From contig JBIKWQ010000023.1 of the NCBI GenBank assembly GCA_044356215.1, positions 1-44,324 on the forward strand: a DNA stretch of 44,324 bases, in the 5' to 3' direction. Below the pieces are notes generated by a model. That model was not told the origin of the DNA. It saw nothing but the letters and a program-made list of their open reading frames with translations, and searched no databases. The DNA is from Bdellovibrionota bacterium (GTDB taxonomy: Bacteria > Bdellovibrionota_C > UBA2361 > OMII01). Shown here piece by piece: positions 4,324 to 20,958 of this stretch. Position 1 is the first letter of the stretch; each line of letters starts with the position of its first letter. Both the position numbers and the translations under genes were made by a program.

Positions 4324-5072
4324 ACCAGCAGAGCCCAACAGTCGAATTTATTGATGTTCACACCGCCTTTGGTGCCAATCATGTGCACCGTGGGCTAAAC
4401 TTCTCTTTAAAGCCTGGTGAGGTTACTACCCTGCTTGGGCCAAGCGGCGCGGGAAAGACTATTATCTTAAAGCTCATCATGGGGCTAACCTGGGCCAAGT
4501 CTGGAACTGTAAAAGTGATGGGCCGCGACATGAATACGATCACCGAAACAGGTCTGAATGAGCTGCGGGTTGATATCGGGATGCTCTTTCAAGGCGCGGC
4601 GCTCTTTGATTCCCTCTCTGTTTTTGAGAATATCGCTTATGGCTTACGTGAGCGTGGGGAGGATGACGAGGAGAAGATCCGAACAATTGTCGAGAGTAGA
4701 TTAGAGATGGTTGGGCTCCTCGGCATTGAGCAAAAAGTTCCATCGCAGCTATCTGGCGGTCAGAAAAAGAGGATTGGATTGGCGCGAGCGTTGGCGTCCT
4801 CTCCTAAGATCATGCTTTACGATGAGCCAACAACGGGGCTAGATCCGACATCGACTCGCAAGATCGACGACCTGATAGTAAAATTCGCCAAGGAATCAGG
4901 GATGACGTCGCTTGTTGTTACACATGACATTCAGAGCGCGATGAGGATCTCAGATCGTTTGATGCTTCTAAGCAAGGGCGTTATATCAGCCGATGGCCCT
5001 GCAAGTAGCCTACCGACTAGCAGCCCTTTAGTGGCCGATTTTGTTTCAGGACAGTGGAAGGATGAACTATGA
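4320..5072 (+). CDS. mlaF: MlaF-family ABC ATPase
   Basis: GPSGAGKT, MLFQGAALFDSLSVFENIA, LSGGQKKRIGLARAL, YDEPTTGLDP; GTGA overlap with mlaE. Confidence 0.93.
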   Translation: MNQQSPTVEFIDVHTAFGANHVHRGLNFSLKPGEVTTLLGPSGAGKTIILKLIMGLTWAKSGTVKVMGRDMNTITETGLNELRVDIGMLFQGAALFDSLSVFENIAYGLRERGEDDEEKIRTIVESRLEMVGLLGIEQKVPSQLSGGQKKRIGLARALASSPKIMLYDEPTTGLDPTSTRKIDDLIVKFAKESGMTSLVVTHDIQSAMRISDRLMLLSKGVISADGPASSLPTSSPLVADFVSGQWKDEL

Positions 5073-6145
5073 AGCTACGTAATGAAGTAAAGGCTGGAAC
5101 GTTCGTTTTGGTATCGCTGGTACTCGTTGCCGCCCTAATTCTTATTATGGGACGCGAGCGGCAGATCTTCGCCAAGCAGAGTAAATTTCACGCTTTTTTT
5201 AAGGATGTGAAGGGACTCTCGGCTGGAGCGCCGGTAAGAATGGGAGGAATTCCAGTGGGCCGGGTTGATAAAGTGGGGTTCTCTGAAGCTCCACTAGATC
5301 AGAAGGTTCAAGTGACCCTTCTGATTAACTCAAACTATCTTGAGCGAGTCAGAAAGGATTCAGTTGTGTCGATCGATACGCAAGGCCTTTTAGGAGATCG
5401 GTTCGTTAGCCTATCGAGTGGTGTCGACCCTGTGGCGGTACCCGCTAATAGCACCCTGCGCTCTGTTGAGATATCAGATATACAACAGGTGATGCACAGG
5501 GCCCAAGCTGCTGTTGACAACACCTCGCAGATAACCGAGCGGATTAACCTCGCGCTAGAGGGGCTCTCTCCCGATACGTTCCGAAACGTAGCATCAGCGT
5601 CGCAAAGCATAGCTGAGATATTTAAGGCGATAAAAACCGAGGAAGGCTTTATGCACCGCTTGATCTATTCTGAGGCGGAGGGAAAGAAGCTAGTGGAAAG
5701 TATCGCTTCGACCTCGAAGGATATAGCTGATTTGGCGAAGGAGGTTCGCTCAGGACATGGAGTGCTGCACGCTCTAGTTTACTCAGATGGTGGCGAGCGC
5801 GCTGTTCAGCGACTATTCGACGCGTCTGACAGCGTTGCATCAGCGAGTGATAATCTATCGAACCTTCTTTTGCAGGCCAAAAACGGCAAAGGATTACTGC
5901 ATGATCTAATCTATACCGATATTGAACCTGGAGTTGTCGCTAAAAGGATCGAGCAGGTTCTAGTTTCTTTAGCGACTATGGCAACTAATCTGAAGGTCAC
6001 TTCGGATTCGTTGGTGCAGGGAACTGGAACTCTCGGGGCTCTGATTCTTGATCCTAAGCTGTATGATAACTTAGTCGAAGTAACAGACGGGGCGAAACGC
6101 AGCTTTATCCTTAGACAAGCTATAAGGAGTTCGTTAAAGAATTAG
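5069..6145 (+). CDS. mlaD: MlaD/MCE-domain protein with long helical C-terminal region
   Basis: N-terminal TM, MCE motifs (GLSAGAPVRMGGIPVGRV, TQGLLGDRFV), followed by helical repeats. Confidence 0.88.
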   Translation: MKLRNEVKAGTFVLVSLVLVAALILIMGRERQIFAKQSKFHAFFKDVKGLSAGAPVRMGGIPVGRVDKVGFSEAPLDQKVQVTLLINSNYLERVRKDSVVSIDTQGLLGDRFVSLSSGVDPVAVPANSTLRSVEISDIQQVMHRAQAAVDNTSQITERINLALEGLSPDTFRNVASASQSIAEIFKAIKTEEGFMHRLIYSEAEGKKLVESIASTSKDIADLAKEVRSGHGVLHALVYSDGGERAVQRLFDASDSVASASDNLSNLLLQAKNGKGLLHDLIYTDIEPGVVAKRIEQVLVSLATMATNLKVTSDSLVQGTGTLGALILDPKLYDNLVEVTDGAKRSFILRQAIRSSLKN

Positions 6146-6221: not shown

Positions 6222-7301
6222 CTACCTTATCTTCAACGACGTCAAAGCGATAATCGCGAAAACCACTGAGAGGATCCAAAACCGGACTATTATCTTAGGC
6301 TCAGACCAGCCTAACAACTCAAAGTGATGGTGAATCGGCGCCATACGGAAAACGCGTTTCTTGGTCGCCTTGTAGTAATAACGCTGAATCACCACAGATG
6401 CCGCCTCGATGACAAAGATTCCTCCTGCGATAACTAGTATTAGCTCCTGCTTGACCAAGACGGCGATAAAACCAAGAGTTCCACCAAGCGCCATAGAACC
6501 AGTGTCGCCCATAAAAACCTGGGCTGGGTACGTGTTATACCACAGGAAGCCCAGGCCAGCCGCGAACATGGCTGATAATATAATAGCTACCTCGCCTGCC
6601 CCTGGGACATGGTGAACACCTAGGTAATCAGCATAAATTGAATTGCCCGCTAGATAGGCAAAAACCCCGTAGGTGAAAGCGACTGTCATGACTGGACCGA
6701 TCGCTAGGCCGTCCAAGCCATCGGTGAAATTTACCGCGTTTGAAGTTGCCGTTAGCACAAACGCTGCGAAGACAACAAAACCAATTACACCAAGATGTAT
6801 AGTCACGTTTTTCAGGAACGGAACATATAGATCTGTCGAGCCTCCAAGCCAAACCAGAACCCCCGCTGAAAACGCACCGATACCAACCTGCGATATAAGC
6901 TTTCCACGCTCTGATAGCCCCTTTGAATCCTGCTTGGTGATCTTTTTCCAATCATCGATAAATCCAAGGTACGCGAAGCCACACATTACAAGCATCGTCA
7001 GCCAGACCTTGGCGTTGGCAAGATCAGCCAAAAGAAGAGTAGCCAACAACACCGCCACAACAACTACCAAGCCCCCCATCGTTGGGGTCCCACGCTTCCC
7101 TTCGTGCGCTTTTGGGCCATCATCACGAATCGGCTGACCCTTTACTCCACGTTGTTGCAACCAACGTATAAATACCGGTTGAAATACCAGAACAAACACA
7201 AATGAGAACAGGAACGCCAGCATCGCCCTGAAGGTCTGGTACTTAAAGAGATTGAATCCGCTGAATAGATCCTGAAGAGATGTAAATAAGTGATACAGCA
7301 C
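6222..7301 (-). CDS. mraY: Phospho-N-acetylmuramoyl-pentapeptide transferase
   Basis: KRGTPTMGG, GFIDD, NAVNFTDGLDGL, PAQVFMGDTGS, FRMAPIHHHFEL. Confidence 0.97.
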   Translation of the reverse strand: MLYHLFTSLQDLFSGFNLFKYQTFRAMLAFLFSFVFVLVFQPVFIRWLQQRGVKGQPIRDDGPKAHEGKRGTPTMGGLVVVVAVLLATLLLADLANAKVWLTMLVMCGFAYLGFIDDWKKITKQDSKGLSERGKLISQVGIGAFSAGVLVWLGGSTDLYVPFLKNVTIHLGVIGFVVFAAFVLTATSNAVNFTDGLDGLAIGPVMTVAFTYGVFAYLAGNSIYADYLGVHHVPGAGEVAIILSAMFAAGLGFLWYNTYPAQVFMGDTGSMALGGTLGFIAVLVKQELILVIAGGIFVIEAASVVIQRYYYKATKKRVFRMAPIHHHFELLGWSEPKIIVRFWILSVVFAIIALTSLKIR

Positions 7302-7905: not shown

Positions 7906-9870
7906 ATGGAACAACGATTGATCGACACCCTTAAGCTCCCAGAAGACCTAAGGTCCATATCCCCAGAGGAGCTTAAGCAGGTCGCAGGCGAGCTAAGAAA
8001 CGAATTAATCGACACGGTCAGTCGCTCCGGTGGCCATTTCGCCTCAAGCCTCGGAACCACCGAGATATCTGTCGCCTTACACAGAGTTTTTGACACTCCA
8101 CACGACCGATTGATCTGGGATGTCGGACACCAAGCGTACATCCACAAGATGCTCACAGGGCGCCGCCAACAGATGGCTGGAATCCGAACTCTTAGTGGTA
8201 TCTCAGGTTTTCTCAAACGCTCAGAGAGTCCGTTCGATGCTTTCGGCGCTGGGCATGCGGGTACAAGTATCTCAGCCGCCGTGGGAATGCGAGTAGCTCT
8301 CGACTCAATCGCCCCTGAGAGATACGTAGCCGCGATTATCGGTGATGGATCGCTTACGTCTGGAATGGCTTTTGAGGCGCTTAATCACGCCGGCGATCTT
8401 AGATTAAAGCGCTTCGTTGTTGTGCTCAACGACAACGAGATGTCGATCTCAAAAAATGTCGGTGCTTTAAGTTGGCTATTCTCACGCGCTGTTACCGGCG
8501 AAACATCCTCACGCGCGCGCGATACCTTTAAACGACTTCATGAACGTGGCTACATCCCTGACCTAATATACCGTGCGGTGGATCGCGCTGAAGAGGCGGC
8601 TCAGGGTTTCTTCTCGTCTCCAGCGATGTTATTTGAAGCTTTCGGGTTTCGTTACATCGGTCCGGTTGATGGACACGACCTGCCGTCCTTAATACAGGCT
8701 TTAGAGAACGCCAAGCGCCAAGACATTCCAGTTATAGTCCACTGCCACACGGTAAAGGGCAAAGGGTACGAGCCCGCGGAGGAAGACCCGATACTCTGGC
8801 ACGGGGTTGTGCCTTTCGATCGCTCTAAAGGAGTTTTTAATCAGAGCTCTGCAGCTCCAGTGGTTAATCAAACGCCCAAGAAACTCCCTTCTTATACGGG
8901 GGTATTCGCCGATACGGTAGCGGAGATAGCCGCTAAGGATCGCTCTGTCGTAGCTATCACAGCGGCAATGCCTAGTGGTACCGGACTAGATAAGGTTATC
9001 AACAAACTCCCAGAACAGGTCTTTGATGTTGGGATCTGCGAGCAGCACGCTGTAACATACGCGGCTGGTCTCGCGTGTGAGGGATTCAAGCCAATCACAG
9101 CGATCTATTCCACATTTCTGCAACGCGGCTATGACCAGATAGTGCATGACGTCTGTATTCAGAACCTTCCAGTTACATTCGCGATCGATCGAGGTGGAGT
9201 TGTCGGTAACGATGGTGAGACTCATCAAGGCGTTTTCGATATCGCCTACCTAAGAGCTATCCCTAACATGACTATCATGTCGCCAAAGGATGAGAACGAA
9301 CTGCGGCACATGCTTTATACCTCGGTACAATTAGGATCGCCCGCTGCTGTCAGATATCCACGTGGAAACGGGCTCGGAGTAACTCTAGACCCTGAATTAA
9401 AAAAGTTACCGGTTGGCCGAGGCGAGGTCCTGCGGACCGGAACAGATGCCTTAGTCATCGGTTTTGGACCTATTGTAAACTATGCGCTGGAGGCAGCCGC
9501 GACCTTATCGCGCGATCACGGCATCGAGTGCACGGTCATTAACGCCCGTTTCGCCAAGCCGCTCGACCAGGAGCTCCTCGCTGCTGAACTTCCTAAGTAC
9601 AGCGTCATCTGCACCGTAGAGGACCACGCATTGGCAGGAGGATTCGGTTCGGCCGTAATTGAGTTCGCGAACGATAAGAACATCAGCTTAAGAGGTTCAA
9701 TCAAGCGATTCGGCGTAGAGGATTCCTTCGTTCCACACGGCTCTCAAGCTGAGCAGCACAAGATGAACGGCTACGATGCGGCAAGCATAATACAGTACAT
9801 CAGAGCAAAAGCGGCGAAGCCTCGCTACCGTGATGCTGCGCTAGAAAACGGCCGCGTTTGCGCTTCTTAG
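7906..9870 (+). CDS. dxs: 1-deoxy-D-xylulose-5-phosphate synthase
   Basis: GGHFASSLG, WDVGHQAY, GDGSLTSGMAFEALN, NDNEMSI, DVGICEQH, YSTFLQRGYDQ, DGETHQG; AGGAG RBS. Confidence 0.97.
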   Translation: MEQRLIDTLKLPEDLRSISPEELKQVAGELRNELIDTVSRSGGHFASSLGTTEISVALHRVFDTPHDRLIWDVGHQAYIHKMLTGRRQQMAGIRTLSGISGFLKRSESPFDAFGAGHAGTSISAAVGMRVALDSIAPERYVAAIIGDGSLTSGMAFEALNHAGDLRLKRFVVVLNDNEMSISKNVGALSWLFSRAVTGETSSRARDTFKRLHERGYIPDLIYRAVDRAEEAAQGFFSSPAMLFEAFGFRYIGPVDGHDLPSLIQALENAKRQDIPVIVHCHTVKGKGYEPAEEDPILWHGVVPFDRSKGVFNQSSAAPVVNQTPKKLPSYTGVFADTVAEIAAKDRSVVAITAAMPSGTGLDKVINKLPEQVFDVGICEQHAVTYAAGLACEGFKPITAIYSTFLQRGYDQIVHDVCIQNLPVTFAIDRGGVVGNDGETHQGVFDIAYLRAIPNMTIMSPKDENELRHMLYTSVQLGSPAAVRYPRGNGLGVTLDPELKKLPVGRGEVLRTGTDALVIGFGPIVNYALEAAATLSRDHGIECTVINARFAKPLDQELLAAELPKYSVICTVEDHALAGGFGSAVIEFANDKNISLRGSIKRFGVEDSFVPHGSQAEQHKMNGYDAASIIQYIRAKAAKPRYRDAALENGRVCAS

Positions 9871-10025
9871 GGAGTTGCTGCACTGGCCGAGACTATTCGC
9901 TTATGAGGACACCGTCCTAATTCAGGTCACCTGGCCCATGCTCAATGGTGCCTATTTTCAGCTACTTATCGTCGGCACAGAAACTGCTGTTTATCTGATC
10001 AAATCCTGAAGCAGAGAGGTTTAAT

Positions 10026-10571
10026 ATGCGGATATATGATCAAGACGGTGAGTTGAATTCACTACTAGGTTTTTCTATCGAAACGGGTTTACTGGGAGTC
10101 ACGGAGATGAGCTGGTCACAGGGCGGAAATTTTACAAGGAATTTGTTGAGCTTACAGCTTCAATTGCAAACTCTTTTAGAGGGGGTCGGAGGAGAAGGCA
10201 CCGCCTCTCTTTTGGACCGTTTAGCTCAATTAAACGACTCTGAACGCAAGCGAATAATCCCCCTACTTTCACGGGTTGTTGGCAGGATCCTCCAAGGGGA
10301 CAAGCGGATGGTTTCAGCCGAGGACAAAGAGCTTCAAGAGTTTGAGGATTCATTGTTCGACAGTATTATGTCAGCGCTTGGACAGAGCGCCAACGACGAC
10401 CGCGTTGAGGCTAACCCCGAGCGCAAACTAGAGATTGTCCCTGGCGGTAAGGGTGAACAGGCGACCAAAGTCCGCCGCAAGCCTGTAAAGGTTCCATCCC
10501 TGATAGATCTTGCTAAGGCTCGTGAGCATAGAAGGCAGCGCTTTGATGCCCCGCCGCACGAGGTAAGCTAA
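10026..10571 (+). CDS. Hypothetical protein (start uncertain)
   Basis: 181-aa ORF with GAGG upstream; helical core and charged, probably disordered C-tail. Confidence 0.6.
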   Translation: MRIYDQDGELNSLLGFSIETGLLGVTEMSWSQGGNFTRNLLSLQLQLQTLLEGVGGEGTASLLDRLAQLNDSERKRIIPLLSRVVGRILQGDKRMVSAEDKELQEFEDSLFDSIMSALGQSANDDRVEANPERKLEIVPGGKGEQATKVRRKPVKVPSLIDLAKAREHRRQRFDAPPHEVS

Positions 10572-10610
10572 GACGTGCCAGCTAGGTTGCGGTTTTATCG
10601 ATAGCACAAC

Positions 10611-10639
10611 TTGATTGCGGCTGATATAATTACTATAAA
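10611..10639 (+). promoter_or_regulatory. Sigma70-type promoter for the Thr/Pro-repeat gene
   Basis: Perfect extended -10 TGnTATAAT at 10622-10630; alternatively TTGATT-17 nt-TATAAA (10611-10639). Confidence 0.55.
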
Positions 10640-10666
10640 GTCCCGGTAGTAGTAACAGATTCCCGC

Positions 10667-11350
10667 ATGGCTAAAAAAACATCCAAAAGCCGACCTAGCT
10701 TAAGCGCTTTATTGCGCGACGTGTCCGCTTTGGACGTGATTACCTCTATCGCATTGGCTGGAATCGCGGTTACAGCTCTGGTCACTATATGGAACTCTCG
10801 CGGAGCTTACGCCCAGCAGCCGCCGGAGCCTCCTCTTTATGACGCCTCGTGCGTTTGCCCCCCTCTTGCGGAATGTAATCAGCAACAGTGTCCAAGCGAC
10901 CATCTTAGTCAGGGATGCTTTGACTGCAACCAGGTCCTGGGCAGCGCGAACTGCGCTGGTCAAGTCGAGGCCCTCGCGGCGAGCTGTGGCTGCTATCCAG
11001 CAGGATCGGCACCAACGGCGACTAATACTCCGGTGAATACACCGACGAATACGCCGGTCGATACCCCAACGAACACGCCTGTTAATACTCCGACGAATAC
11101 GCCGGTTAATACTCCAACGAACACGCCTGTTAATACTCCGACGAATACACCGGTTAATACCCCAACGAACACTCCTGTTAACACTCCGACAAATACGCCG
11201 GTTAATACCCCAACGAACACGCCGAAGAACACACCTACCTTAGCACCAACTAACACGCCTACAGCGACACCATCGCATACGCCTAAATCCCTCGGTGGCG
11301 GAACTTCTAGCGGGGGAAGCAGCTCTGGAGGAGGATGGCCGCTTTTTTAG
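10667..11350 (+). CDS. Membrane-anchored or exported protein with a Cys-rich domain and Thr/Pro (TNTPVNTP) repeats
   Basis: N-terminal hydrophobic helix, 9 Cys in about 45 aa, in-frame repeat tract, Gly/Ser tail ending WPLF. Confidence 0.8.
11021..11236 (+). repeat. Coding tandem repeat: 9 x 24 nt with 48-nt higher-order periodicity
   Basis: Units alternate approximately ACGAACACGCCTGTTAATACTCCG / ACGAATACGCCGGTTAATACCCCA; units 3 and 5 are identical; differences are almost all synonymous. Confidence 0.95.
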
Positions 11351-11430
11351 GGTTTAGGTGATCCTAATGCACAAGTCACCTTGACGGGCGGACCTAACAG
11401 CGGCGCTTCTTATCGAATAACACTTCCCAA

Positions 11431-12291
11431 ATGAGCTCAATTTTAAAATCAAAGGCATTCGCCCCCGCTCGCATCACCGGATTCTTCATGATCTTCGAGG
11501 GTGGCTCCACTGGCTCAGGAGTAAACTTAGCTGATGGAGCTACCACTGAAGTAACAATCGGCGATGATAAAGGCGAGTTCGACATCACCGTAAACGGAGC
11601 CGACACGCAGGCAAAGGTATCGCGCAGGGTTTTTGAGGCTTTCGCATCGGATATTGATGGAAGGTCCGTTAGAGCAAAAACAGAGACCACTTTTCCGGTC
11701 GGATACGGACTCGGGATGAGCGGTGCTGGAGCGTTCTCGCTCTCACTGGCTCTTAATTCAACGCTTGGAGGAAAAAGATCGTATCAGCAATGCGCCCAGA
11801 TCGCCACCGAAGCTGAGATCTTCTGCGGAACAGGTTTGGGTACAGTGATGAACCAGCAGTTCTGTGGATTCTTAATCGGAAACGAGCCCTACCCAAGCAG
11901 GTCAGCCAGACAGATAATTTGCCCTGAGGATACGGTGGTGTGTTGCTTTCTTAATCCGATCGAAACTGGATCGATTATTAGGGATCCAGGCTGGAAAGAT
12001 CGGATCAACTCGATCGGTAAAGAGTGTATGTCAGAGATCAATCGAGATCCAAATATCCCTAACTTTACACTCCTCGCACGACACTTCGCGCTCTCAACCG
12101 GACTGGCGAACGACACCTTGCGAGCCATCATGGATGATGTCAAGGTAGCGTGTATGGCAATGCTAGGCCAAACGCTCTTCGCTGTTGTGCGCGGTGAGGA
12201 TGCTAACACCGTCGCGGAGCAATTTAGAAGGTACTCGCCGCGCGTACAGATATCGGGGCTCGGAGATCGTCCAGCCCTGGTGCTGGAGTAA
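11431..12291 (+). CDS. Archaeal-type pantoate kinase (PoK, GHMP kinase family)
   Basis: KAFAPARITGFF, GSTGSGV, GHMP ATP loop PVGYGLGMSGAGA, AEIFCGTGLG, ACMAMLGQTLF; adjacent to a PPS gene. Confidence 0.85.
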   Translation: MSSILKSKAFAPARITGFFMIFEGGSTGSGVNLADGATTEVTIGDDKGEFDITVNGADTQAKVSRRVFEAFASDIDGRSVRAKTETTFPVGYGLGMSGAGAFSLSLALNSTLGGKRSYQQCAQIATEAEIFCGTGLGTVMNQQFCGFLIGNEPYPSRSARQIICPEDTVVCCFLNPIETGSIIRDPGWKDRINSIGKECMSEINRDPNIPNFTLLARHFALSTGLANDTLRAIMDDVKVACMAMLGQTLFAVVRGEDANTVAEQFRRYSPRVQISGLGDRPALVLE

Positions 12292-12315
12292 TACGCACGT
12301 AAGAAAGGCCTCAAG

Positions 12316-13050
12316 ATGGGAATGGTTCCGAAGAGTCATCCACGATACAAGTCTCTCATGGCGCGCTACACAGTAGCCGAAGGTGTAAAAGCCGGTATTA
12401 CTACTATTACCGGCCTGACAGCGCACGGACGAGGCGAGGCATTTGACTATTTGCTTGGAGAACGGACCCATAAGTTTGCCGACCAGGCTGCCAAAGCCGC
12501 TGCGGCAGCATTATTACTCGCCGAACGTCCAGTTATATCGATTAACGGCAACACAGCCGTTCTGACCCCAAAGGAGATGCTCAGTCTAGCAAAGCGTTCG
12601 AAGGCGGCGCTTGAAGTCAACCTTTTCTACGACACAGGAAAACGCCGGAAGCTTATAGGTAAGCTGTTCAAGACCCGATATAAATATGAACTTTTAGGCG
12701 TTACTCCAGATTGCAGACTCTCTGGACTAAAGTCTCAACGAGCTCTCGTTGATTCTCGCGGAATTTACGCAGCTGACTTGGTGCTTGTTTCTCTTGAGGA
12801 TGGCGATAGAACCATGGCCCTTAAACAGGCCGGCAAACAGGTTATCGCGATCGATTTGAATCCGTTTTCGAGGACCCCTCAAACCGCTGATATCTCCATC
12901 ATCGACAATGCCCAGCGTGCTTTCCCGCTAATTGAGAAACACGTTAGCAAATTAAAAAATGCCTCCTCCGCTACACTGCGTGGGATTCTGAAGCGCTACA
13001 ACAATAAAAAGATCTTAAACGAAGCTATCGCCGCGATAAGAAATGGATAG
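12316..13050 (+). CDS. Archaeal-type phosphopantothenate synthetase (4-phosphopantoate--beta-alanine ligase, PPS)
   Basis: PKSHPRYKSL, GLTAHGRGEAFDYLLGE, PVISINGN, LEVNLFY, ADLVLVSLEDGDRT, VIAIDLNPFSRT: signature blocks of the archaeal family. Confidence 0.94.
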   Translation: MGMVPKSHPRYKSLMARYTVAEGVKAGITTITGLTAHGRGEAFDYLLGERTHKFADQAAKAAAAALLLAERPVISINGNTAVLTPKEMLSLAKRSKAALEVNLFYDTGKRRKLIGKLFKTRYKYELLGVTPDCRLSGLKSQRALVDSRGIYAADLVLVSLEDGDRTMALKQAGKQVIAIDLNPFSRTPQTADISIIDNAQRAFPLIEKHVSKLKNASSATLRGILKRYNNKKILNEAIAAIRNG

Positions 13051-13786
13051 GCGAATCAATACATCAGCAATGGTACTGTTTACTGGTCACTCGATCGCCT
13101 CGACTGCCGCGTCTCTTTTTCTCTGCGCGCTCTGCTTGTTACCCTCTGGGTGCTCTAGCAGTTCCGATCCTGAGCCGGAGCCAGAGGCCAAAGAGCTAAA
13201 GACATCTAAAGATTCTCAAGAGACTGATGCACCAGAAGCTGAGCTGGTTCAAACATCTAAAAAGCTCTATCAGATCGGGATGTATACAGTCGCTCGTGAT
13301 TCGTTTGCTTCACTCAAAGACAGGTATCCGCTCGGTGCCTACGCGAATTTTGCCGAGGTGAAGTACGCAGACTCTTTTTTCTTCAACCGAGAGTACAATG
13401 AGGCGGCTAAAGCATACGAGAGTATCATCAAAAACTACCCCGCGAGCCCCGACCTACCCTACATCAAATTACAGGCTGCTCGTTCTCACGTGGCATCGGC
13501 ACGCGATGCCGGACGAGACCGGCAACCTTGGGAACGGGGGCTTACTATCTACAGCGAAATCATCGCCGCATACCCCGGGTCGGATTATTCTAACCTGGCT
13601 AAAGCGGAGCGAGCTAAGGTCATAGAGGAGCTTTCTGCTTATGACCGCGAGATCATCGAATTTTACAGGCGTGAAGGCAACCAAGCAGCGGTTGACGCCA
13701 GGGAGGCTCGCTTTAAAGAGCGCTGGGGCTCGCTCATCACTGAGCCCTCACCAGCTCCTGAGGAGTCCATCGCCCCCCTACCCTAG
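13043..13786 (+). CDS. bamD: Outer membrane assembly lipoprotein BamD-like (start may be ATG 13070)
   Basis: Lipobox LPSGC, TPR-like helices, DRYPLGAYA..A, YP.SP..PY, RDQ-like RDRQ, IIEFY. Confidence 0.8.
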   Translation: MDRRINTSAMVLFTGHSIASTAASLFLCALCLLPSGCSSSSDPEPEPEAKELKTSKDSQETDAPEAELVQTSKKLYQIGMYTVARDSFASLKDRYPLGAYANFAEVKYADSFFFNREYNEAAKAYESIIKNYPASPDLPYIKLQAARSHVASARDAGRDRQPWERGLTIYSEIIAAYPGSDYSNLAKAERAKVIEELSAYDREIIEFYRREGNQAAVDAREARFKERWGSLITEPSPAPEESIAPLP

Positions 13787-13908
13787 ACAGCCACAACATC
13801 GTTTGTACAGCTTTCGCCCCCTCCCTCTCCTTGGTAGCTCTAGAGAGGGATTCGGAGCTCCAATGTATTTTTTGTAAGTTACTGGAATAATAAGCGAAAC
13901 TTCCTTGC

Positions 13909-13991
13909 CACAGAGGACCCAGAGGACACAGAGACAACTCCATAATTGCCAATAGAATGGCCTATTCTTTGTGTCATCTGCGTCCTCTCTG
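13909..13991. repeat. Intergenic inverted repeat built from CACAGAGGA-type units (REP-like)
   Basis: Left arm 13909-13933 CACAGAGGACCCAGAGGACACAGAG; right arm 13967-13991 matches its reverse complement at 21/25 positions; 33-nt spacer. Confidence 0.75.
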
Positions 13992-14190
13992 TTGAAAAAT
14001 TACTGCGGCGCCCTCTAGAGGAATTCCGCACCGGAATAACACCGTCCCATCATCTTATCACGTGAGGAATGAGTGTGTGAAACTAGCAGGCTCGCTTAAC
14101 GGCGCCAGGCAGGTCTTTAGTAAAGAGAGTCTCTGTCGCAAAGCTAGCTAGACATTTATCATTGGGCAGGATCAGTTAAGGCTTATTAGA

Positions 14191-15114
14191 GTGCGGCAGT
14201 TATTAAACATTCAGGACTTGAGGGGGTTGGACTACAACACCGTTCTTAGCCGTCTCATGCGGCGAGATAACATAGCGCGCTTGGTACGCTCAGTTAACCT
14301 CATCTGCTCAGTAGTAGTGGCTCTCTCGATTATCGTTCTGTTAATCGTTCTCGGCCAGGGAATCCTTGATCGAATGAGCGTCACCTCCAGGCTTCAGTCT
14401 CGAATCGCCGCGATAGCGTCCAAGTCCCAACAGGGAGCGGGAAGCCAACTCAGTTCAAGCTACGATTGGGGGGTAGTCAAGGATCGCAAACCTTTCGGGG
14501 CTATCGGCAAAGTAGCCGCTCCGGTGTCAGCAGCGCCGACCCCTCCACCCTCTCCTCTGATGTTATCTTTAATCGGAACGTTTGTTACGCAAGGACAGGA
14601 TCCATACGCAATCATCGAAGACAAAAAGAAAAATGATCAGGACATGTTCGTAATCGGCGATTCGATATTTGAGCAAGCGACCCTGAAAAAGATCTTCCTA
14701 GATCGTGTTGAGGTTGAACGTAACGGCAAGATTGAGATCTTACGCCTTGACGAGATCGGTGGAAACGCGGGAGCGGGCATAGTTTCATCCGGAGCTGATG
14801 ATTTCGTTGTTGAGGAGGCCGAGCTTGACAAGGGTCTTGAAAATCTGCCGCTCCTTTTAACTCAAGCGCGTGCTGTACCGTACTTCAAAGATGGCCGCTC
14901 TATCGGTCTCCGCCTATTCGCGATTAAAACCGGAAGCCTATATGAGAAGGTCGGCCTAAAGAACGGCGACATCCTCAAAACCATCAATGGCAACAACTTA
15001 GGGGATATCTCCCAGGCATTAAAACTTTTCGAACAGTTAAAACAGGAACGCTCAATTAATTTAACTCTAGAGCGTGATAAGCAGGAACGTGAATTTAAGT
15101 ATACGATAAGGTAA
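14191..15114 (+). CDS. gspC: Type II secretion protein C (HR plus PDZ)
   Basis: TM segment, LSLIGT...AIIED, C-terminal PDZ (IKTGSLYEKVGLKNGDILKTING); first gene of the gsp cluster. Confidence 0.9.
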   Translation: MRQLLNIQDLRGLDYNTVLSRLMRRDNIARLVRSVNLICSVVVALSIIVLLIVLGQGILDRMSVTSRLQSRIAAIASKSQQGAGSQLSSSYDWGVVKDRKPFGAIGKVAAPVSAAPTPPPSPLMLSLIGTFVTQGQDPYAIIEDKKKNDQDMFVIGDSIFEQATLKKIFLDRVEVERNGKIEILRLDEIGGNAGAGIVSSGADDFVVEEAELDKGLENLPLLLTQARAVPYFKDGRSIGLRLFAIKTGSLYEKVGLKNGDILKTINGNNLGDISQALKLFEQLKQERSINLTLERDKQEREFKYTIR

Positions 15115-15117
15115 GAC

Positions 15118-17985
15118 ATGAATTACAGGAACTACCTAAACTCATTCTTAGTGGCGGCGATGCTCTCTGGGGCGTTGGTTACCTCGCCTTTGTCATCGCA
15201 CGCGCAGACGCCAACAGATGGCGCTGGAGATGTAGCTAATGGCGACATCGGCAAGGACTCGAATACTGAGATCAACGTCAAGAACGCCGACATCTCGGCG
15301 ATTATAAGGATCTTCTCGCGCAAGACTAAAAGAAACTACATCCTCGACGAGAAGGTTCGTGGCAAAGTTTCAATCTATCTACCGGGTAAAGTTTCTTCTG
15401 AGGAGTCGCTTAGAATTCTCGATTCTGTGCTGGCTCTAAAAGGCTTTACAACGGTTCCAATCGGCGAGAACCTTTGGAAGATCGTTCCATCAAAAGAAGC
15501 TAGGCAGTCAACTATTCCGACGAGACTCGATGGGCGTACAAGCAATCCAACATCATCGGTTGTGACACGCTTAGTCACTCTGAAGTACGTTAGCGCTCAA
15601 GATGTTCAACAGATCGTCTCTCAACTTATTTCCGGCGACGGTTTGGTGAACGCCTATACAGGAACAAATTCGCTGATTTTGATCGACGCCGAGGATAACG
15701 TTGAGCGTCTGCTACGTATCATCGACCAGCTCGACGTGCCTTTCTCAAATAGAGAGATGACGATTATCCCTATACAGCACGCTGATGTGGAGGATATCAG
15801 TCAGAAGCTAAATGACATCCTTGGGGACGGAGCGAAGAAAGATGGCTCAAATGAGGCGGCTCGGGCGGCTCTTCGAGATCCGAACCAACCTGCTGCTATT
15901 CCGGCAGGTGGCGCCTCCCAGACAATTAGAGGCACTTCTGGCAAAACAATATCAGCTCGTGGACTTGAGCCAAAAATTATTCCTGACCAGCGCACTAACT
16001 CTCTGATTGTAGTCGCCGATGATGAGACCACCGCTCGTATACGCGCTCTTGTCGCCCAGTTAGATAGCCGAGTAGATCTCTCGGGAAATAAGTTTTACGT
16101 CTATCGATGTCAACACGCTAACGCCGAAGAGCTCTCTCAGGTATTAGCTGGCCTAGTAGGCGGTGGATCCGGAGGTACGTCTAGCGGTTTCGGGTCGACT
16201 TTCGGAAACCAAGGTGGCTCTGGAGGACTCTTTGACTCCTCTTCTGGGCTCGGTCAGAACAGAAGCTCACTTAATAACAGAAATTCATCGGGCTTTGGAC
16301 GAAACAACTCGTCTGGCGCTTCAGGCCTGGGCGGAGGAGGGTTTGGAAGTGGTGGTCGTGGCTCTGGACGATCTGGCGCTGGAAATCGCGGAACCGTATC
16401 TACTCAGCTAGGAGAAAACATCTCAATCACGGCGGACCCGGCTACGAACTCTCTTATCATCGCGGCAAGCAAACCGGATTATGAGAAGATTAAGGCTCTT
16501 TTAGCGCAGATCGATGTTAAGCGTCGTCAGGCTCTGGTTGAGGCAACGCTACTTGAGGTTTCTATTGATGACCGTATCCGTACAAGCACCAGCTTCCTGA
16601 CCTCAACAGGGGGAGCTGATGGAGGCGCTTTTGCTAGGAGTGAGTTCGCGGGAGAGAATTCACTTACCACTCTCTTCACAAACCCGACTAAGCTTCAAGG
16701 GTTAACACTCGCGGCTGCTAGCGCTGGATCGCTTAAGCTGCCTGGAGGGATCACGCTGCCGACTCAATCGATTCTGGTCAGCGCGGCCCAGCAGAATAAC
16801 AACGTAAACGTACTTAGCGCTCCGACTATCTTAGCGACAGATAATGAGGAAGCTCAGATCGTTGTCGGTCAGAACGTACCTTTCCTCGCCAGTACTGGAA
16901 CAAACGCGGTCAATCTTAACAACACATTCAATCAGGTAGATCGTCAAGATGTGGGAATTACCTTGCGTATTACTCCGCAGATAAGCTCACGCGATTACGT
17001 TACTTTAAGAGTTTATACTGAGGTTTCCGCGTTAGTTTTATCAACTGTCAACTCAGCATTAGGGCCGACAACAACTAAACGTCAGAGTGAAACTACGATT
17101 ATCGCCAAGGACGGTCAGATGATCGTTACAGGCGGATTGATCGCTGATGACGTTTCCGAGACCGATGAGGGCATTCCATACCTAAAGGATATACCGGTTC
17201 TCGGTCACGCGTTTAAGGCGAATTCACAGGCACGCGCTCAGAAAAACCTGCTGATATTCTTAACCCCAAGAATCATCAAAGACCAGTTCGACGCCCGCGA
17301 TTCAACGATTGAGAGCCGCGATAAGATGGAGGATGTGATCGCTCAATACGATGTTCAGCCAAAGAGGGAAGCGACTCTAAAAAACAGACGTATCGACCAG
17401 GTGGCTGAGTCCAATCCGTATGAAGGGCCAAAGCCTGGAACTATTCTTCCTCCAACTAAGGCAGGGAAGGAAGCGACCGCTCCTCGGCTGCCGATTAAGG
17501 AGCAAAAAGCCGCCGTTCTTGACGGATCAGCAGCGGGAATTCTTGATCTTGATTCCGCCGCAGCTCCTTCCGAGTCAGCGGGCAACGCTCCCGTTCTCGA
17601 CCTTAATGCTGTTCCGGCCAATCAACAGCAACCAAAAGCATCGCTCAAAGGTAATACAACAAAGGTGCTTCCCGCTCCTTTGGCTTCTTTCGTCGTAGCT
17701 GAGGTTACCAAGGGAACCGAGCTGCCATTTAATAACAAGAGGCCAGGAGAGCGTTTTGGATTGATCGTTCCAAGTGATAGCTCAATTGAGGCTAAGACCT
17801 TCTTCAGGGCCGGCAATACCTACAGCTACGGCGCCCCAGGATCGCAACGTGACATAGTAATAAAGGGATCTTTCTCCTCGCCCTCGGACGCTGAATCGCG
17901 GTATCCTGAGGTATCGGGCTCGTGGCATACCCTATCCACTGGAGAGGTTAAAAACCTCGGGCGTGTGCCTTGGACGCGTAAGTAA
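15118..17985 (+). CDS. gspD: Type II secretion secretin D with C-terminal extension
   Basis: N0-N3 repeats (TNSLI), LSAPTILATDNEEAQIVVGQNVPF, DVGITLRITPQI, GIPYLKDIPVLGHAF, NLLIFLTPRII. Confidence 0.95.
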   Translation: MNYRNYLNSFLVAAMLSGALVTSPLSSHAQTPTDGAGDVANGDIGKDSNTEINVKNADISAIIRIFSRKTKRNYILDEKVRGKVSIYLPGKVSSEESLRILDSVLALKGFTTVPIGENLWKIVPSKEARQSTIPTRLDGRTSNPTSSVVTRLVTLKYVSAQDVQQIVSQLISGDGLVNAYTGTNSLILIDAEDNVERLLRIIDQLDVPFSNREMTIIPIQHADVEDISQKLNDILGDGAKKDGSNEAARAALRDPNQPAAIPAGGASQTIRGTSGKTISARGLEPKIIPDQRTNSLIVVADDETTARIRALVAQLDSRVDLSGNKFYVYRCQHANAEELSQVLAGLVGGGSGGTSSGFGSTFGNQGGSGGLFDSSSGLGQNRSSLNNRNSSGFGRNNSSGASGLGGGGFGSGGRGSGRSGAGNRGTVSTQLGENISITADPATNSLIIAASKPDYEKIKALLAQIDVKRRQALVEATLLEVSIDDRIRTSTSFLTSTGGADGGAFARSEFAGENSLTTLFTNPTKLQGLTLAAASAGSLKLPGGITLPTQSILVSAAQQNNNVNVLSAPTILATDNEEAQIVVGQNVPFLASTGTNAVNLNNTFNQVDRQDVGITLRITPQISSRDYVTLRVYTEVSALVLSTVNSALGPTTTKRQSETTIIAKDGQMIVTGGLIADDVSETDEGIPYLKDIPVLGHAFKANSQARAQKNLLIFLTPRIIKDQFDARDSTIESRDKMEDVIAQYDVQPKREATLKNRRIDQVAESNPYEGPKPGTILPPTKAGKEATAPRLPIKEQKAAVLDGSAAGILDLDSAAAPSESAGNAPVLDLNAVPANQQQPKASLKGNTTKVLPAPLASFVVAEVTKGTELPFNNKRPGERFGLIVPSDSSIEAKTFFRAGNTYSYGAPGSQRDIVIKGSFSSPSDAESRYPEVSGSWHTLSTGEVKNLGRVPWTRK

Positions 17986-17996
17986 GGACTTAACTG

Positions 17997-19628
17997 ATGA
18001 ATAGCCCCGCTCCATCGCAAATAGCGACACCGACCACGGCGACCTCTGAGTCTGACAGTAGACTATTGTCACAGACTCTGGGATTAACCTACTTAGATCA
18101 ACTCCCGGATCCCCTTCCGCCTCGTAATCCAGTTCGTGGCGACTTTGACCGCATAGCTGGTTCGTGGGGAAGGCAGTTTCTTACTGTGCCGATCGGGGGC
18201 GATGACTCTCATGTAGTCGTGGCTACCGCTGACCCACTAAACATAGAGGCGATAGAGCAACTACGGGTCTGTTATGAGCGACCGATTAAGGTCGTTGTTA
18301 CCTCGGCTGCGCAAATTACAAAAGCGATCAACTCGATCCGCACCAGCCTGATGAGTGATAAAACAAGCTCTCTAGCTGATTCCGGCAAGAAAGAGGACGC
18401 GGAAGATTTATCAAATCAACTTAAGATTGACGTCACTGATTCTGATGATGATGACGCTCCGATTATTCGTTACGTAAACGCTATTATCTTTAAGGCTAGC
18501 TCTGAGCGCGCCTCAGACGTTCACATCGAGCCGTATGAAGATAAGCTCAAAGTTCGTTTCCGTGTTGACGGAGTGCTGTACGATGTGGCGAGTGAGGACA
18601 AAGCTTTCCAAGCTGCGATTATATCCCGTGTTAAGATCATGGCCGGACTCAACATCGCGGAGAAACGACTCCCTCAGGACGGTCGTATCGGCTTAAAGAT
18701 CGCTGGAAAAGAAGTAGACATCCGCGTATCAACAGTCCCAACTCAGTTTGGTGAACGTATTGTAATGCGTCTTCTGGACAAAACTGGAGCAGTGCTTGAT
18801 ATACATCAGCTAGGCATTGAGAAGCGTAACCTAGATATGATGGTGAAGCTTCTTGCCAAGCCAAACGGCATCATCCTAGTTACCGGACCTACCGGATCCG
18901 GAAAGACAACCACGCTTTACGCGTGTTTAACAAATATCAACAAACCTGACTTGAACATCCTGACCGTTGAGGATCCGATCGAGTACCAGCTCGATGGAAT
19001 CGGTCAGATGCAGGTAAATCCAAAGATCGACTTTACATTCGCCAGCGGTCTGCGCGCTATATTGCGACAAGACCCGGATGTGGTGATGGTGGGAGAAATT
19101 CGAGATACCGAGACAGCGGAGATAGCCATTCAGGCGTCTCTAACCGGACACTTAGTTCTCTCCACTCTACACACTAACGACTCTGCAGGTGCCGTGAGCC
19201 GATTACTCGACATGGGAGTTGAGCCTTTCTTAGTGTCATCGAGTCTTTTAGCGGTATTGGCGCAGAGGCTTGTAAGAAAGCTCTGCCCTGACTGCCGAGT
19301 TCCTTATGAGATCAGCGACGCTGAACTTAAGGAGCTAAGTTTAAACCCTGCTGAGGTGACCAATCGGCAAGCCTTTAAGGCTGGGGCAACTTCGTGTCCG
19401 CGGTGCCAAGGCACGGGATACTCAGGTCGACTTGGAATTCATGAGCTACTTATCATCGATGACGATGTGCGTAATCAGATCTTACAGCAGGTGGACTCAA
19501 ACACGATCAAGAACTCGGCGATTAAACGTGGCTTCGCGAGTTTGCGCGCCGATGGTGGACGCAAGGTTTTAGCTGGACTCACTTCAGTAGAAGAGGTTTT
19601 ACTCGCCAGCCACGACGACGCTAGCTAA
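17997..19628 (+). CDS. gspE: Type II secretion ATPase E
   Basis: [44 protein letters not shown], CxxC...CxxC. Confidence 0.96.
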
Positions 19629-19642
19629 GGGAATTTTAGAAG

Positions 19643-20866: not shown

Positions 20867-20958
20867 AGAAAAGGTTCAATATGGCGCTGTTTGGAAGAAA
20901 CTGAGATTATACATGTGTACGTTCAATTTTGGATTAAACAGAGCTTAAGGCTTAAGTT

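What the first reader, a model, noticed from the sequence alone, without database searches (positions are those of the whole stretch)
11431..13050. Archaeal-type CoA pathway (pantoate kinase plus phosphopantothenate synthetase) in a Gram-negative bacterium
Seen: two adjacent co-directional genes, 24 nt apart, carrying PoK (AFAP.ITGFF, GHMP loop) and PPS (SHPRY.SL, AHGRGEAFDYLLGE, EDGDR, IDLNP.SRT) signatures, among clearly bacterial genes (dxs, bamD, T2SS, mraY). Established: bacteria normally use PanC then CoaA/CoaX/CoaW, whereas most archaea phosphorylate pantoate first (PoK) and then ligate beta-alanine (PPS). As I recall, bacterial PoK/PPS has been noted in very few lineages (e.g. Ca. Poribacteria). 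Inference: inter-domain transfer that may have replaced panC and pantothenate kinase in this lineage.
Basis: partly seen in the sequence, partly recalled or inferred. Interest (0 to 1): 0.88.

Follow-up and report, generated by a model that had tools for sequence, protein, structure and literature searches.

The report
Archaeal-type CoA gene pair replacing panC
A freshwater Bdellovibrionota bacterium makes the coenzyme A precursor phosphopantothenate with the two "archaeal" enzymes, pantoate kinase and phosphopantothenate synthetase, and the pair sits in the spot where its closest relatives carry the usual bacterial gene panC; the gene call is right, but bacteria with this pair have been published before.

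Summary
Two co-directional ORFs, 11431-12291 and 12316-13050, lie 24 nt apart. They encode a pantoate kinase (PoK) and a 4-phosphopantoate--beta-alanine ligase (PPS).

- **PPS:** it passes the curated cut-offs of PF02006 and NF010324 and aligns end to end with the solved Thermococcus PPS.
- **PoK:** it is more diverged, but PoK models are its best family hits, 6jbc is its only PDB sequence hit and 6jbc is by far its best fold match.
- **Own genome (96.5% complete):** no panC, coaX or coaA was found. panB, panD, ilvC, coaBC, coaD and coaE are present.
- **Phylum (124 genomes):** 12 have PPS, 90 have PanC, 0 have both and 22 have neither.
- **Position:** in 19 of 20 PanC-bearing congeners, panC lies directly beside bamD, pointing away from it. 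In the window and three other carriers, PoK-PPS fill that slot.
- **History:** on a dxs tree the carriers form one clade nested inside the genus, so the pair is derived there.
- **Source:** the pair belongs to a clade shared with other families of the same phylum. Its nearest named archaeal relatives are DPANN (Diapherotrites) MAGs. The immediate donor was therefore probably bacterial and the ultimate one archaeal.
- **Assembly:** contigs from independent runs bridge every junction.

This is a new lineage for a kind already published for Poribacteria in 2020, with an unusually clear panC displacement.

The parts
11431..12291 (+). pantoate kinase (PoK), a GHMP-family kinase of 286 aa
   Evidence: PF00288 scores 35.2 bits (cut-off 22.3). 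The best NCBIfam models are pantoate kinase, NF040725 at 102.8 and NF041122 at 91.1 bits; both are below their equivalog cut-offs, and other GHMP types score 21 bits or less. The only PDB sequence hit is 6jbc pantoate kinase at 78 bits. The AF2 model has pLDDT 95. The top Foldseek hit is 6jbc at E 3e-24 and TM 0.86/0.83; the next hits have TM about 0.7.
12292..12315 (+). 24-nt spacer with a purine-rich AAGAAAGG (12301-12308) 7 nt before the PPS ATG
   Evidence: Sequence printed. Nitrosopumilaceae loci show the same PoK-then-PPS order with a gap of about 20 nt.
12316..13050 (+). 4-phosphopantoate--beta-alanine ligase (phosphopantothenate synthetase, PPS), 244 aa
   Evidence: PF02006 scores 222.2 bits (cut-off 26.4) and NF010324 scores 332.7 (cut-off 227). 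NF041123 scores 287.9, just under its cut-off of 300. It scores 240 bits over residues 3-243 against the T. kodakarensis PPS structures 4mb0/3wdk. It carries the consensus residue at all 57 columns that are at least 93% conserved in the 85 rows used for the consensus.
13043..13786 (+). bamD (outer-membrane assembly lipoprotein); its first ATG overlaps the PPS stop by 8 nt
   Evidence: TIGR03302 at 107.7 bits and PF13525 at 65 bits. The overlap ATGGATAG is read from the sequence. This is the right-hand border of the replaced slot.
10667..11350 (+). non-conserved ORF with a PTNTPVNT tandem repeat; part of the variable stretch left of the pair
   Evidence: No Pfam family. A 24/48-nt tandem array lies at 11019-11229. 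At E 1e-5, no ORF of the other carriers or of the further loci compared matches it.
10026..10571 (+). conserved ORF of unknown function; left-hand border of the slot
   Evidence: Homologues at 47-76% identity lie next to dxs in carriers and non-carriers alike.
7906..9870 (+). dxs, a conserved flank gene used for the genus tree
   Evidence: TIGR00204 at 807 bits.

Best explanation
The two genes are a working PoK-PPS operon. PoK phosphorylates pantoate with ATP to give 4-phosphopantoate. PPS then ligates beta-alanine to give 4'-phosphopantothenate, which enters the ordinary bacterial CoaBC, CoaD and CoaE steps. Pantoate would come from PanB plus a ketopantoate reductase (probably IlvC), and beta-alanine from PanD. 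In this subclade of an uncultured freshwater Bdellovibrionota genus, the pair has displaced pantothenate synthetase (panC) in the variable stretch directly upstream of bamD, and is probably co-transcribed with bamD. The cassette most likely came from another bacterium of the same phylum and was acquired earlier from an archaeon, possibly DPANN-like. Shown here: gene identities, pathway complement, mutual exclusivity with panC, shared slot, and nested position of the carriers. Inferred: enzyme activities, co-transcription, and the direction and source of the transfers.
For: Identity.

Pathway in G000 (96.46% complete, 1.23% contamination):
- panC PF02569: none.
- coaX PF03309: none.
- coaA TIGR00554: only a 38-bit hit, which is a uridine kinase cut short at 121 aa.
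- tblastn with PanC of two relatives and CoaX of two relatives against the whole assembly: no hit at E<=0.01.
- Present: coaBC 435 bits, panB 366, panD 137, coaD 184, coaE 175, ilvC 324.

Exclusivity:
- Of 41 relatives, 6 have PPS, 34 have PanC and 1 has neither.
- Of 124 genomes of the phylum, 12 have PPS, 90 PanC, 0 both and 22 neither.
- The PoK model scores at least 94 bits in 10 of the 12 PPS carriers and at most 38 bits in every other genome.

Slot:
- panC lies within 500 nt of bamD, pointing away from it, in 19 of 20 PanC-bearing congeners and in 5 of 14 other families.
- The order dxs / ORF10026 homologue / panC(-) / bamD / gspC is seen in G017, G002, G001, G024 and, apart from dxs, G012; G025 (another family) has dxs-panC-bamD-gspC without the ORF10026 homologue. 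In G001 and G024 one extra ORF lies between the ORF10026 homologue and panC.
- The order PoK / PPS / bamD / gspC is seen in G000, G004 and G006. In G110, PPS-bamD-gspC-gspD start one contig and PoK ends another.

History:
- On the dxs tree of 31 rows, the 5 carriers form one clade (SH-aLRT 99) nested among panC-bearers.
- The PPS branching order within the genus matches the dxs order.

Source:
- The PPS tree of 87 rows has a 40-row clade (98) that joins the genus with G051, G068, G047 and unnamed metagenome proteins.
- In those three genomes PoK, at 39-47% identity, lies directly upstream of PPS.
- On the PoK tree this bacterial clade shares a 91-supported node with a group holding both Diapherotrites-named proteins, apart from Nitrososphaerota and Asgard rows.

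Not an assembly artefact:
- Contigs of other runs bridge 11119-12609, 12627-13574 and 12810-13972 with 0 differences, and 11603-13020 with 19 differences.
- GC3 of the pair (0.544 and 0.486) is like that of its neighbours (0.49-0.55).
Against: - PoK scores 102.8 bits against an equivalog cut-off of 380, and PPS scores 287.9 against 300 for the archaeal equivalog. By NCBI's own thresholds, neither qualifies as the archaeal equivalog.
- No activity or expression data exist. The one RNA run laid covers only 10019-10665 and 13676-13821.
- The assembly has 131 contigs and is 3.5% incomplete, so a missing panC or PanK cannot be fully excluded. The type II PanK search had a silent control.
- No dedicated panE was found above the cut-off.
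- The slot argument has exceptions. In carrier G003 the pair lies elsewhere, and bamD sits at a contig end. In G106, a panC-bearer of the sister group, the slot is empty and panC is on another contig. In G007 the pair sits alone on a 2.9-kb contig.
- dxs is a neighbour of the locus, so it is not an independent species marker.
- Trees are quick searches with SH-aLRT support only and midpoint roots. The archaeal donor is not resolved on the PPS tree.
Confidence: 0.85

Rival explanations
1. Both routes were present in an ancestor of the phylum, and today's patchwork comes from differential loss. On this reading there was no transfer of the pair into this genus.
For: PoK-PPS pairs of one clade occur in four distant families of the phylum. 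The pair shows no compositional anomaly.
Against: None of 124 genomes holds both routes. The panC-bamD arrangement is shared by 19 of 20 PanC-bearing congeners and 5 other families. The carriers are a single nested clade. This reading would therefore need long coexistence followed by many parallel losses.
Confidence: 0.08
2. The GHMP kinase is not a pantoate kinase, and the pair, or the kinase alone, acts on another hydroxy acid. The CoA precursor would then be salvaged from prey or from the environment.
For: PoK is far below the equivalog cut-offs. Bdellovibrionota include predators, and 22 of 124 genomes of the phylum have neither PanC nor PPS.
Against: PoK models are the best hits by more than 80 bits. 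6jbc is the only PDB sequence hit and the top fold match, at TM 0.86 against about 0.7 for the rest. The kinase keeps the archaeal adjacency to PPS. panB, panD and coaBC are retained, which makes sense only if pantoate and beta-alanine are used.
Confidence: 0.05
3. panC and a PanK do exist in this organism but lie in the unassembled part, so the pair is redundant.
For: The assembly has 131 contigs and is 96.46% complete.
Against: The same absence is seen in all 12 PPS carriers of the phylum. In this genome panC's usual slot is assembled and is occupied by the pair.
Confidence: 0.04
4. The pair is archaeal DNA joined to a bacterial contig by mis-assembly or mis-binning.
For: None found.
Against: Contigs of independent runs bridge all junctions. 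The same PoK-PPS-bamD-gspC order is seen in two other species-level genomes, and PPS-bamD-gspC in a third. Composition matches the flanks.
Confidence: 0.01

Closest known systems
PoK (TK2141, PDB 6jbc/6jbd) and PPS (TK1686, PDB 3wdk-3wdm; related structure 4mb0) of Thermococcus: the characterised archaeal route
   Same: Same two families and the same predicted chemistry, with phosphorylation before condensation. PPS aligns over its full length at 240 bits. The PoK fold matches at TM 0.86. All 57 highly conserved PPS columns are kept. The TK gene numbers are recalled and come from no call.
   Different: The host is a diderm bacterium. The downstream steps are the bacterial CoaD and CoaE, not the archaeal PPAT and GTP-dependent DPCK. 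PoK shares only about 28% identity with 6jbc. The pair sits in an operon-like run with bamD.
PoK/PPS of sponge-associated Candidatus Poribacteria (Thomes and Lescure 2020, PMC7883664; main text parts 1 and 2 of 3 read, supplements not seen)
   Same: It is a bacterial lineage in which PoK/PPS and PS/PanK are mutually exclusive between related groups. It has bacterial DPCK and no classical KPR, with KARI/IlvC as the proposed substitute. The window's genome shows all of these.
   Different: The phylum and habitat differ (freshwater). Here the split lies inside one genus, and the pair sits in panC's own slot. No tree relating the two bacterial groups could be built, because no Poribacteria sequences were fetched.
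PoK-PPS gene pairs of Nitrosopumilaceae and of Diapherotrites-named DPANN MAGs
   Same: They share the gene order and the gap of about 20 nt. They are the nearest named relatives. PPS is 50-56% identical to Nitrosopumilaceae and 58-59% to Diapherotrites-named proteins. PoK is 47% and 38% identical to the two Diapherotrites-named proteins.
   Different: PoK is only about 30% identical to the Nitrosopumilaceae proteins. Neither group is shown to be the donor. On the PPS tree the bacterial clade stands apart from all sampled archaea.

Membership tests
Phosphopantothenate synthetase (PF02006 / NF010324; 4-phosphopantoate--beta-alanine ligase) | Scores above the curated family cut-offs | tested here: met
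   PF02006 scores 222.2 bits against 26.4, and NF010324 scores 332.7 against 227.
Phosphopantothenate synthetase (PF02006 / NF010324; 4-phosphopantoate--beta-alanine ligase) | Scores above NCBI's archaeal equivalog cut-off (NF041123) | tested here: not met
   287.9 bits against a cut-off of 300. It falls just short, as expected for a diverged bacterial branch.
Phosphopantothenate synthetase (PF02006 / NF010324; 4-phosphopantoate--beta-alanine ligase) | Full-length likeness to a solved PPS, with the family's conserved residues kept | tested here: met
   It scores 240 bits over residues 3-243 against 4mb0/3wdk. It carries the consensus residue at 57 of 57 columns that are at least 93% conserved. 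Which of these residues bind substrate was not looked up.
Phosphopantothenate synthetase (PF02006 / NF010324; 4-phosphopantoate--beta-alanine ligase) | Ligates 4-phosphopantoate, not pantoate, with beta-alanine | not testable with these tools
   This needs an enzyme assay.
Pantoate kinase (GHMP superfamily; NF040725 / NF041122) | GHMP kinase N-terminal domain and motifs | tested here: met
   PF00288 scores 35.2 bits against 22.3. P89, G93, G95 and S97 of the phosphate-binding loop are invariant in a 40-sequence alignment.
Pantoate kinase (GHMP superfamily; NF040725 / NF041122) | Scores above the equivalog cut-offs | tested here: not met
   102.8 bits against 380, and 91.1 against 500. These are still the best models by more than 80 bits. 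None of the four archaeal control genomes that matched reached the cut-off either, so the cut-off is narrow.
Pantoate kinase (GHMP superfamily; NF040725 / NF041122) | Closest solved relative, by sequence and by fold, is pantoate kinase | tested here: met
   6jbc is the only PDB hit at E<=0.01, at 78 bits. The top Foldseek hit is 6jbc at E 3e-24 and TM 0.86/0.83, rmsd 2.7; the next hit has E 3e-16 and TM 0.73.
Pantoate kinase (GHMP superfamily; NF040725 / NF041122) | Lies directly upstream of PPS, as in archaea | tested here: met
   The gap here is 24 nt. The same order, with a gap of about 20 nt, is seen in Nitrosopumilaceae, Njordarchaeota, Hodarchaeota and Thermoproteota loci.
Pantoate kinase (GHMP superfamily; NF040725 / NF041122) | ATP-dependent phosphorylation of pantoate | not testable with these tools
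   This needs an enzyme assay.
PoK/PPS route standing in for PS/PanK in a bacterium (as in Entoporibacteria) | No PanC and no PanK of type I, II or III in the genome | tested here: met
   The type II searches found nothing, but their control rang nowhere. Completeness is 96.46%.
PoK/PPS route standing in for PS/PanK in a bacterium (as in Entoporibacteria) | The rest of the pathway is present | tested here: met
   panB, panD, coaBC, coaD, coaE and ilvC are present. panE is not found above the cut-off.
PoK/PPS route standing in for PS/PanK in a bacterium (as in Entoporibacteria) | Mutually exclusive with PanC among relatives | tested here: met
   None of 124 genomes has both; 12 have PPS and 90 have PanC.

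The most novel reading that the evidence does not exclude
In this phylum the step from pantoate to phosphopantothenate is a swappable module with at least three solutions, and two of them are not yet understood. (a) A 1.6-kb PoK-PPS cassette moves between bacteria and displaces panC at panC's own locus. (b) In two genomes (G059, G062) a PF02006 protein lies in an operon with a true type III pantothenate kinase and no PoK. Either a PF02006 enzyme works there as a pantothenate synthetase, or CoaX works as a pantoate kinase. (c) The 20 sampled panC-bearing species of the genus (G001-G024, less the four carriers) have no recognisable PanK of type I or III, and a type II search of all 35 genomes of the genus found none. 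They must therefore use an undescribed kinase, whose earlier arrival or loss may have set the stage for the PoK-PPS takeover.
Probability: 0.3. Interest if true: 0.65.

Novelty: new member of a known kind. Interest (0 to 1): 0.5.

Why it matters
PoK/PPS against PS/PanK has been treated as a marker that separates archaea from bacteria and eukaryotes (PMC6650551, passages read; PMC7883664). This case adds a free-living freshwater diderm lineage to the exceptions. It shows the swap at species-level resolution within one genus and places the incoming pair in the outgoing gene's slot. That makes it one of the cleaner natural examples of non-orthologous gene displacement in an essential cofactor pathway. 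It also flags annotation gaps: the PanK step in the panC-bearing congeners and the PF02006+CoaX operons.

Tried and rejected
- **Remnant of panC in the window:** tblastn with the PanC of G017 gave nothing better than E 1.4.
- **Promoters and terminators, 9800-14300:** 5 promoter-like and 5 terminator-like sites were found, against 3.7 and 3.8 expected. This is uninformative.
- **Rfam (9800-14300) and tRNA scan of the whole window:** nothing found.
- **Expression:** the single RNA run laid (X15) has contigs only at 10019-10665 and 13676-13821, so nothing can be said about PoK or PPS.
- **AU test that the 12 PF02006 proteins of the phylum form one clade:** rejected at p 5e-59. The test was badly posed, because unnamed metagenome proteins that may belong to the same phylum interleave with them. 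I draw nothing from it.
- **Names for ten unnamed PPS relatives:** The listing of cluster members returned none.
- **Metagenome scan with an alignment of the bacterial PPS clade:** the aim was to see the immediate donor's gene context. The question stays open.
- **coaA-like hits in the genus:** they are uridine kinases; the four scanned (G010, G021, G015, G019) score 220-226 bits on NF004018 against a cut-off of 180. They are not PanK.
- **ORFs downstream of panC in G001, G024 and G010:** they are not homologous to one another. Only the G010 ORF is a P-loop kinase, in the PRK family at 35 bits.
- **Shared substitutions in the CoaX-linked PF02006 proteins:** none at 57 conserved columns, so sequence gives no hint of a changed substrate.
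- **Earlier notes of this scan for this genome or this sequence:** none found.
Full report
**Observation.** One search lists two co-directional ORFs, 11431-12291 (286 aa) and 12316-13050 (244 aa), separated by 24 nt. The neighbours are plainly bacterial:
- dxs at 7906-9870;
- bamD at 13043-13786;
- a type II secretion cluster (gspC, D, E, F, G and pseudopilins) at 14191-23251;
- an Mla transporter at 3553-6145;
- an MraY/WecA-type transferase at 6222-7301.

The first ATG of bamD overlaps the PPS stop by 8 nt. A purine-rich AAGAAAGG lies 7 nt before the PPS start (sequence printed).

**What the two proteins are.** ORF2 is a phosphopantothenate synthetase.
- PF02006 scores 222 bits (cut-off 26.4) and NF010324 scores 332.7 (cut-off 227).
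- The archaeal equivalog NF041123 scores 287.9, just under its cut-off of 300.
- It aligns over residues 3-243 with the solved Thermococcus enzymes 4mb0 and 3wdk at 240 bits.
- It carries the consensus residue at all 57 columns that are at least 93% conserved across 85 relatives.

ORF1 is more diverged.
- It has a GHMP kinase domain (PF00288, 35 bits).
- Its best NCBIfam models are the two pantoate kinase models, at 102.8 and 91.1 bits. Both are far under their equivalog cut-offs of 380 and 500. All other GHMP kinase types score 21 bits or less.
- Its only PDB sequence hit at E<=0.01 is pantoate kinase 6jbc, at 78 bits.
- An AlphaFold2 model built on a 40-sequence alignment has mean pLDDT 95.
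- Its top Foldseek match in the PDB is 6jbc (E 3e-24, TM 0.86/0.83, rmsd 2.7). Mevalonate diphosphate decarboxylases and homoserine kinases follow at TM about 0.7 and E about 1e-15 to 1e-16.
- The order PoK then PPS, with a gap of about 20 nt, recurs in the Nitrosopumilaceae, Njordarchaeota, Hodarchaeota and Thermoproteota loci fetched.

**Pathway complement of the genome.** The window is contig C37 of a 3.24-Mb assembly. It has 131 contigs, 96.46% completeness and 1.23% contamination.

Not found:
- PanC.
- Type III PanK.
- Type I PanK. The single 38-bit hit is a uridine kinase gene cut off at 121 aa by a TAG.
- Type II PanK. The control for that family rang in no genome, so this negative is weak.
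- Any tblastn hit at E<=0.01 for PanC of two relatives and CoaX of two relatives against the whole assembly.

Present:
- coaBC at 435 bits, panB at 366 and panD at 137.
- Bacterial coaD at 184 bits and coaE at 175.
- ilvC at 324 bits. IlvC could supply ketopantoate reductase activity, as proposed for Poribacteria (PMC7883664).
- No panE scored above its cut-off.

**Relatives.** Record titles of the closest PPS loci name uncultured Bdellovibrionota. Runs that hold half or more of the sampled words of the stretch are lake, river and other aquatic metagenomes.
- Among 41 genomes (25 of the genus, 16 other families of the order), 6 have PPS and 34 have PanC. The two sets are exact complements, apart from one small genome with neither.
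- Across all 124 genomes held for the phylum, 12 have PPS, 90 PanC, 0 both and 22 neither.
- The PoK model scores at least 94 bits in 10 of the 12 PPS carriers and at most 38 bits everywhere else.

**The pair sits in panC's slot.**
- In 19 of 20 PanC-bearing congeners, and in 5 of 14 PanC-bearing genomes of other families, panC lies within 500 nt of bamD on the opposite strand.
- Fetched regions show dxs(+), a conserved ORF (homologue of 10026-10571), panC(-), bamD(+), gspC(+) in G017, G002, G001 and G024. G001 and G024 each have one extra ORF between the conserved ORF and panC. G012 shows the same order except that no dxs was matched in the fetched stretch. G025, from another family, has dxs-panC-bamD-gspC without the conserved ORF.
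- Carriers G000, G006 and G004 show the same left and right flanks, but with a non-conserved ORF or ORFs, then PoK(+), PPS(+), bamD(+), gspC(+).
- In G110, PPS-bamD-gspC-gspD start one contig and PoK ends another.
- The stretch between the conserved ORF and bamD is variable in general. G010 and G018 carry several extra genes there.

Exceptions:
- In carrier G003 the pair lies in another context, and bamD is at a contig end.
- In G007 the pair is alone on a 2.9-kb contig.
- In G022, panC and bamD are on different contigs.
- In G106, a panC-bearer of the carriers' sister group, the slot is empty (141 nt) and panC lies on another contig.
- G101 has neither gene, and an unassignable 275-aa ORF sits at the slot.

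The takeover may therefore have passed through intermediate states rather than one clean exchange.

**History.**
- A dxs tree was built from 30 genomes of the genus plus G025 as outgroup. The five carriers form one clade (SH-aLRT 99). That clade is nested in the genus and is sister to G106, G022, G002 and G017; the joint clade also has support 99.
- dxs is a neighbour of the locus, so this is suggestive rather than independent.
- The PPS branching order among the carriers matches the dxs order. This fits one acquisition followed by vertical descent.
- There is no panC remnant and no compositional anomaly, so the event is not recent.

**Source.**
- On a PPS tree of 87 rows, a 40-row clade (SH-aLRT 98) unites the genus clade (11 rows, support 100) with G051, G068 and G047. 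These three belong to other orders of the same class. The clade also holds unnamed metagenome proteins. The 87 rows came from 212 after dereplication at 82% identity; the search was quick and the root is at the midpoint.
- All named archaea lie on the other side of that tree.
- In G051, G068 and G047, PoK (39-47% identical to the window's) lies directly upstream of PPS (50-55% identical), but not beside bamD.
- On a PoK tree of 44 rows (from 137, dereplicated at 75%), the bacterial clade (25 rows, support 84) sits in a polytomy (91). The polytomy also holds an 8-row group containing both proteins named 'Candidatus Diapherotrites archaeon'. This larger set (97) stands apart from Nitrososphaerota, Thermoproteota and Asgard rows.

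I read this as an older entry from archaea, possibly DPANN-like, followed by spread among bacteria of the phylum. The donor is not resolved.

**Assembly check.** Contigs assembled from other public runs bridge every junction.
- 11119-12609 (upstream ORF, PoK and the start of PPS), 0 differences.
- 12627-13574 and 12810-13972 (PPS into bamD), 0 differences.
- 11603-13020, 19 differences, from a river sample.

Together with the conserved order in three other species-level genomes, this excludes a chimera.

**Mechanism proposed.**
- PanB and a reductase (probably IlvC) make pantoate.
- PoK phosphorylates pantoate.
- PPS adds the beta-alanine made by PanD.
- CoaBC, CoaD and CoaE finish CoA.
- The tight spacing, and the overlap with bamD, suggest one transcript with an essential envelope gene. 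This is inferred, not shown.

**Known or new.** The library searches returned one paper that reports bacterial PoK/PPS: Thomes and Lescure 2020 on Poribacteria (PMC7883664, main text parts 1 and 2 of 3 read; supplements not seen).
- No paper among the 20 best-ranked of 793 holds 'phosphopantoate' together with Bdellovibrio or Oligoflexia terms.
- Nine papers since 2020 hold 'pantoate kinase'. Only this one of the eight listed concerns bacteria.
- Shimosaka et al. 2019 (PMC6650551, passages read) still call the two enzymes unique to archaea.
- JGI's and NCBI's pipelines already name the close relatives 'pantoate kinase' and '4-phosphopantoate--beta-alanine ligase'.
- Earlier notes of this scan, which are unchecked AI notes, report such pairs in CPR bacteria, Spirochaetota, Latescibacterota and Poribacteria.

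This is therefore a new lineage of a known kind. What this case adds is the within-genus resolution and the shared slot.

**Unexplained.**
- Type III PanK was not found in any of the 25 sampled genomes of the genus, but was found in 13 of 16 other families of the order.
- No type I PanK passes its cut-off in any of the 41 genomes.
- No type II PanK was found in 35 genomes of the genus, with a silent control.
- So the 20 sampled panC-bearing congeners have no recognisable PanK.
- Two PPS carriers without PoK (G059, G062) have a true type III PanK next to their PF02006 gene, touching or overlapping it. The PanK scores 305 and 295 bits on NF009855, against a cut-off of 233.
- Their PF02006 proteins lie on the archaeal side of the PPS tree, together with that of G036, and keep the conserved residues.

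Noticed in passing
L135 5835-7629 (G062) and L136 2566-4168 (G059): A PF02006 (PPS/PS family) gene lies in an operon with a true type III pantothenate kinase. The kinase scores 305 and 295 bits on NF009855 (cut-off 233). These genomes have no PoK and no PanC. This suggests a hybrid route: either PF02006 acts as a pantothenate synthetase, or CoaX acts on pantoate. The gene order differs between the two genomes.
   Followed up: partly
genomes G001-G024 (genus of the window): The panC-bearing congeners have no recognisable pantothenate kinase. CoaX was found in 0 of 25 sampled genomes of the genus, no type I PanK passes its cut-off (the weak hits are uridine kinases), and the type II search found none, with a silent control. 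The enzyme for this essential step is unidentified.
   Followed up: partly
window 13909-13991: An imperfect palindromic element of about 81 nt lies in the bamD-gspC spacer, with 35-nt arms that are 77% complementary. blastn-short finds 231 hits across the genome's contigs. Metagenome contig depth jumps from about 4 to 80-116 over it. It looks like a MITE- or REP-type repeat.
   Followed up: partly
window 10667-11350: This ORF has an N-terminal hydrophobic segment, a Cys-rich stretch and about 8.6 tandem 24-nt repeats (11019-11224) encoding PTNTPVNT. It has no Pfam family and is not conserved in relatives. Contigs of other runs break inside the repeat.
   Followed up: partly
L002 1501-1866 (G000 contig C20): The genome's uridine kinase gene is cut to 121 aa by a TAG. 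It scores 132 bits on NF004018 against a cut-off of 180. Congeners have full-length copies of 206-255 aa. This is either a pseudogene or a sequencing error.
   Followed up: partly
L176 5582-6409 (G101) and L177 6474-6616 (G106): G101 has neither PanC nor PPS. A 275-aa ORF with no Pfam or NCBIfam family sits where panC normally lies. In G106 the slot is empty (141 nt) and panC lies on another contig. The site upstream of bamD appears prone to rearrangement.
   Followed up: partly
L170 15-818 (G036 contig C9) and L137 8942-9640 (G036 contig C241): G036 has the highest-scoring PoK of the phylum (150.8 bits) at one contig edge and its PPS at another contig edge. The orientations would make them adjacent if the two contigs join. 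Both proteins are of a different, more archaeal-like type than the window's.
   Followed up: no
window 23264-23983 (-): A Sfp-type 4'-phosphopantetheinyl transferase (PF17837 + PF01648), which consumes CoA, lies 10 kb downstream of the pair, just after the T2SS pseudopilin genes. There is no evident link to the pair.
   Followed up: no
window 34645-36586: A 321-aa ORF has a weak IS200-like Y1 transposase match (22 bits, below the cut-off). Next to it is a 255-aa ORF with a lysozyme-like 'Pesticin C-terminal' domain (26 bits).
   Followed up: no
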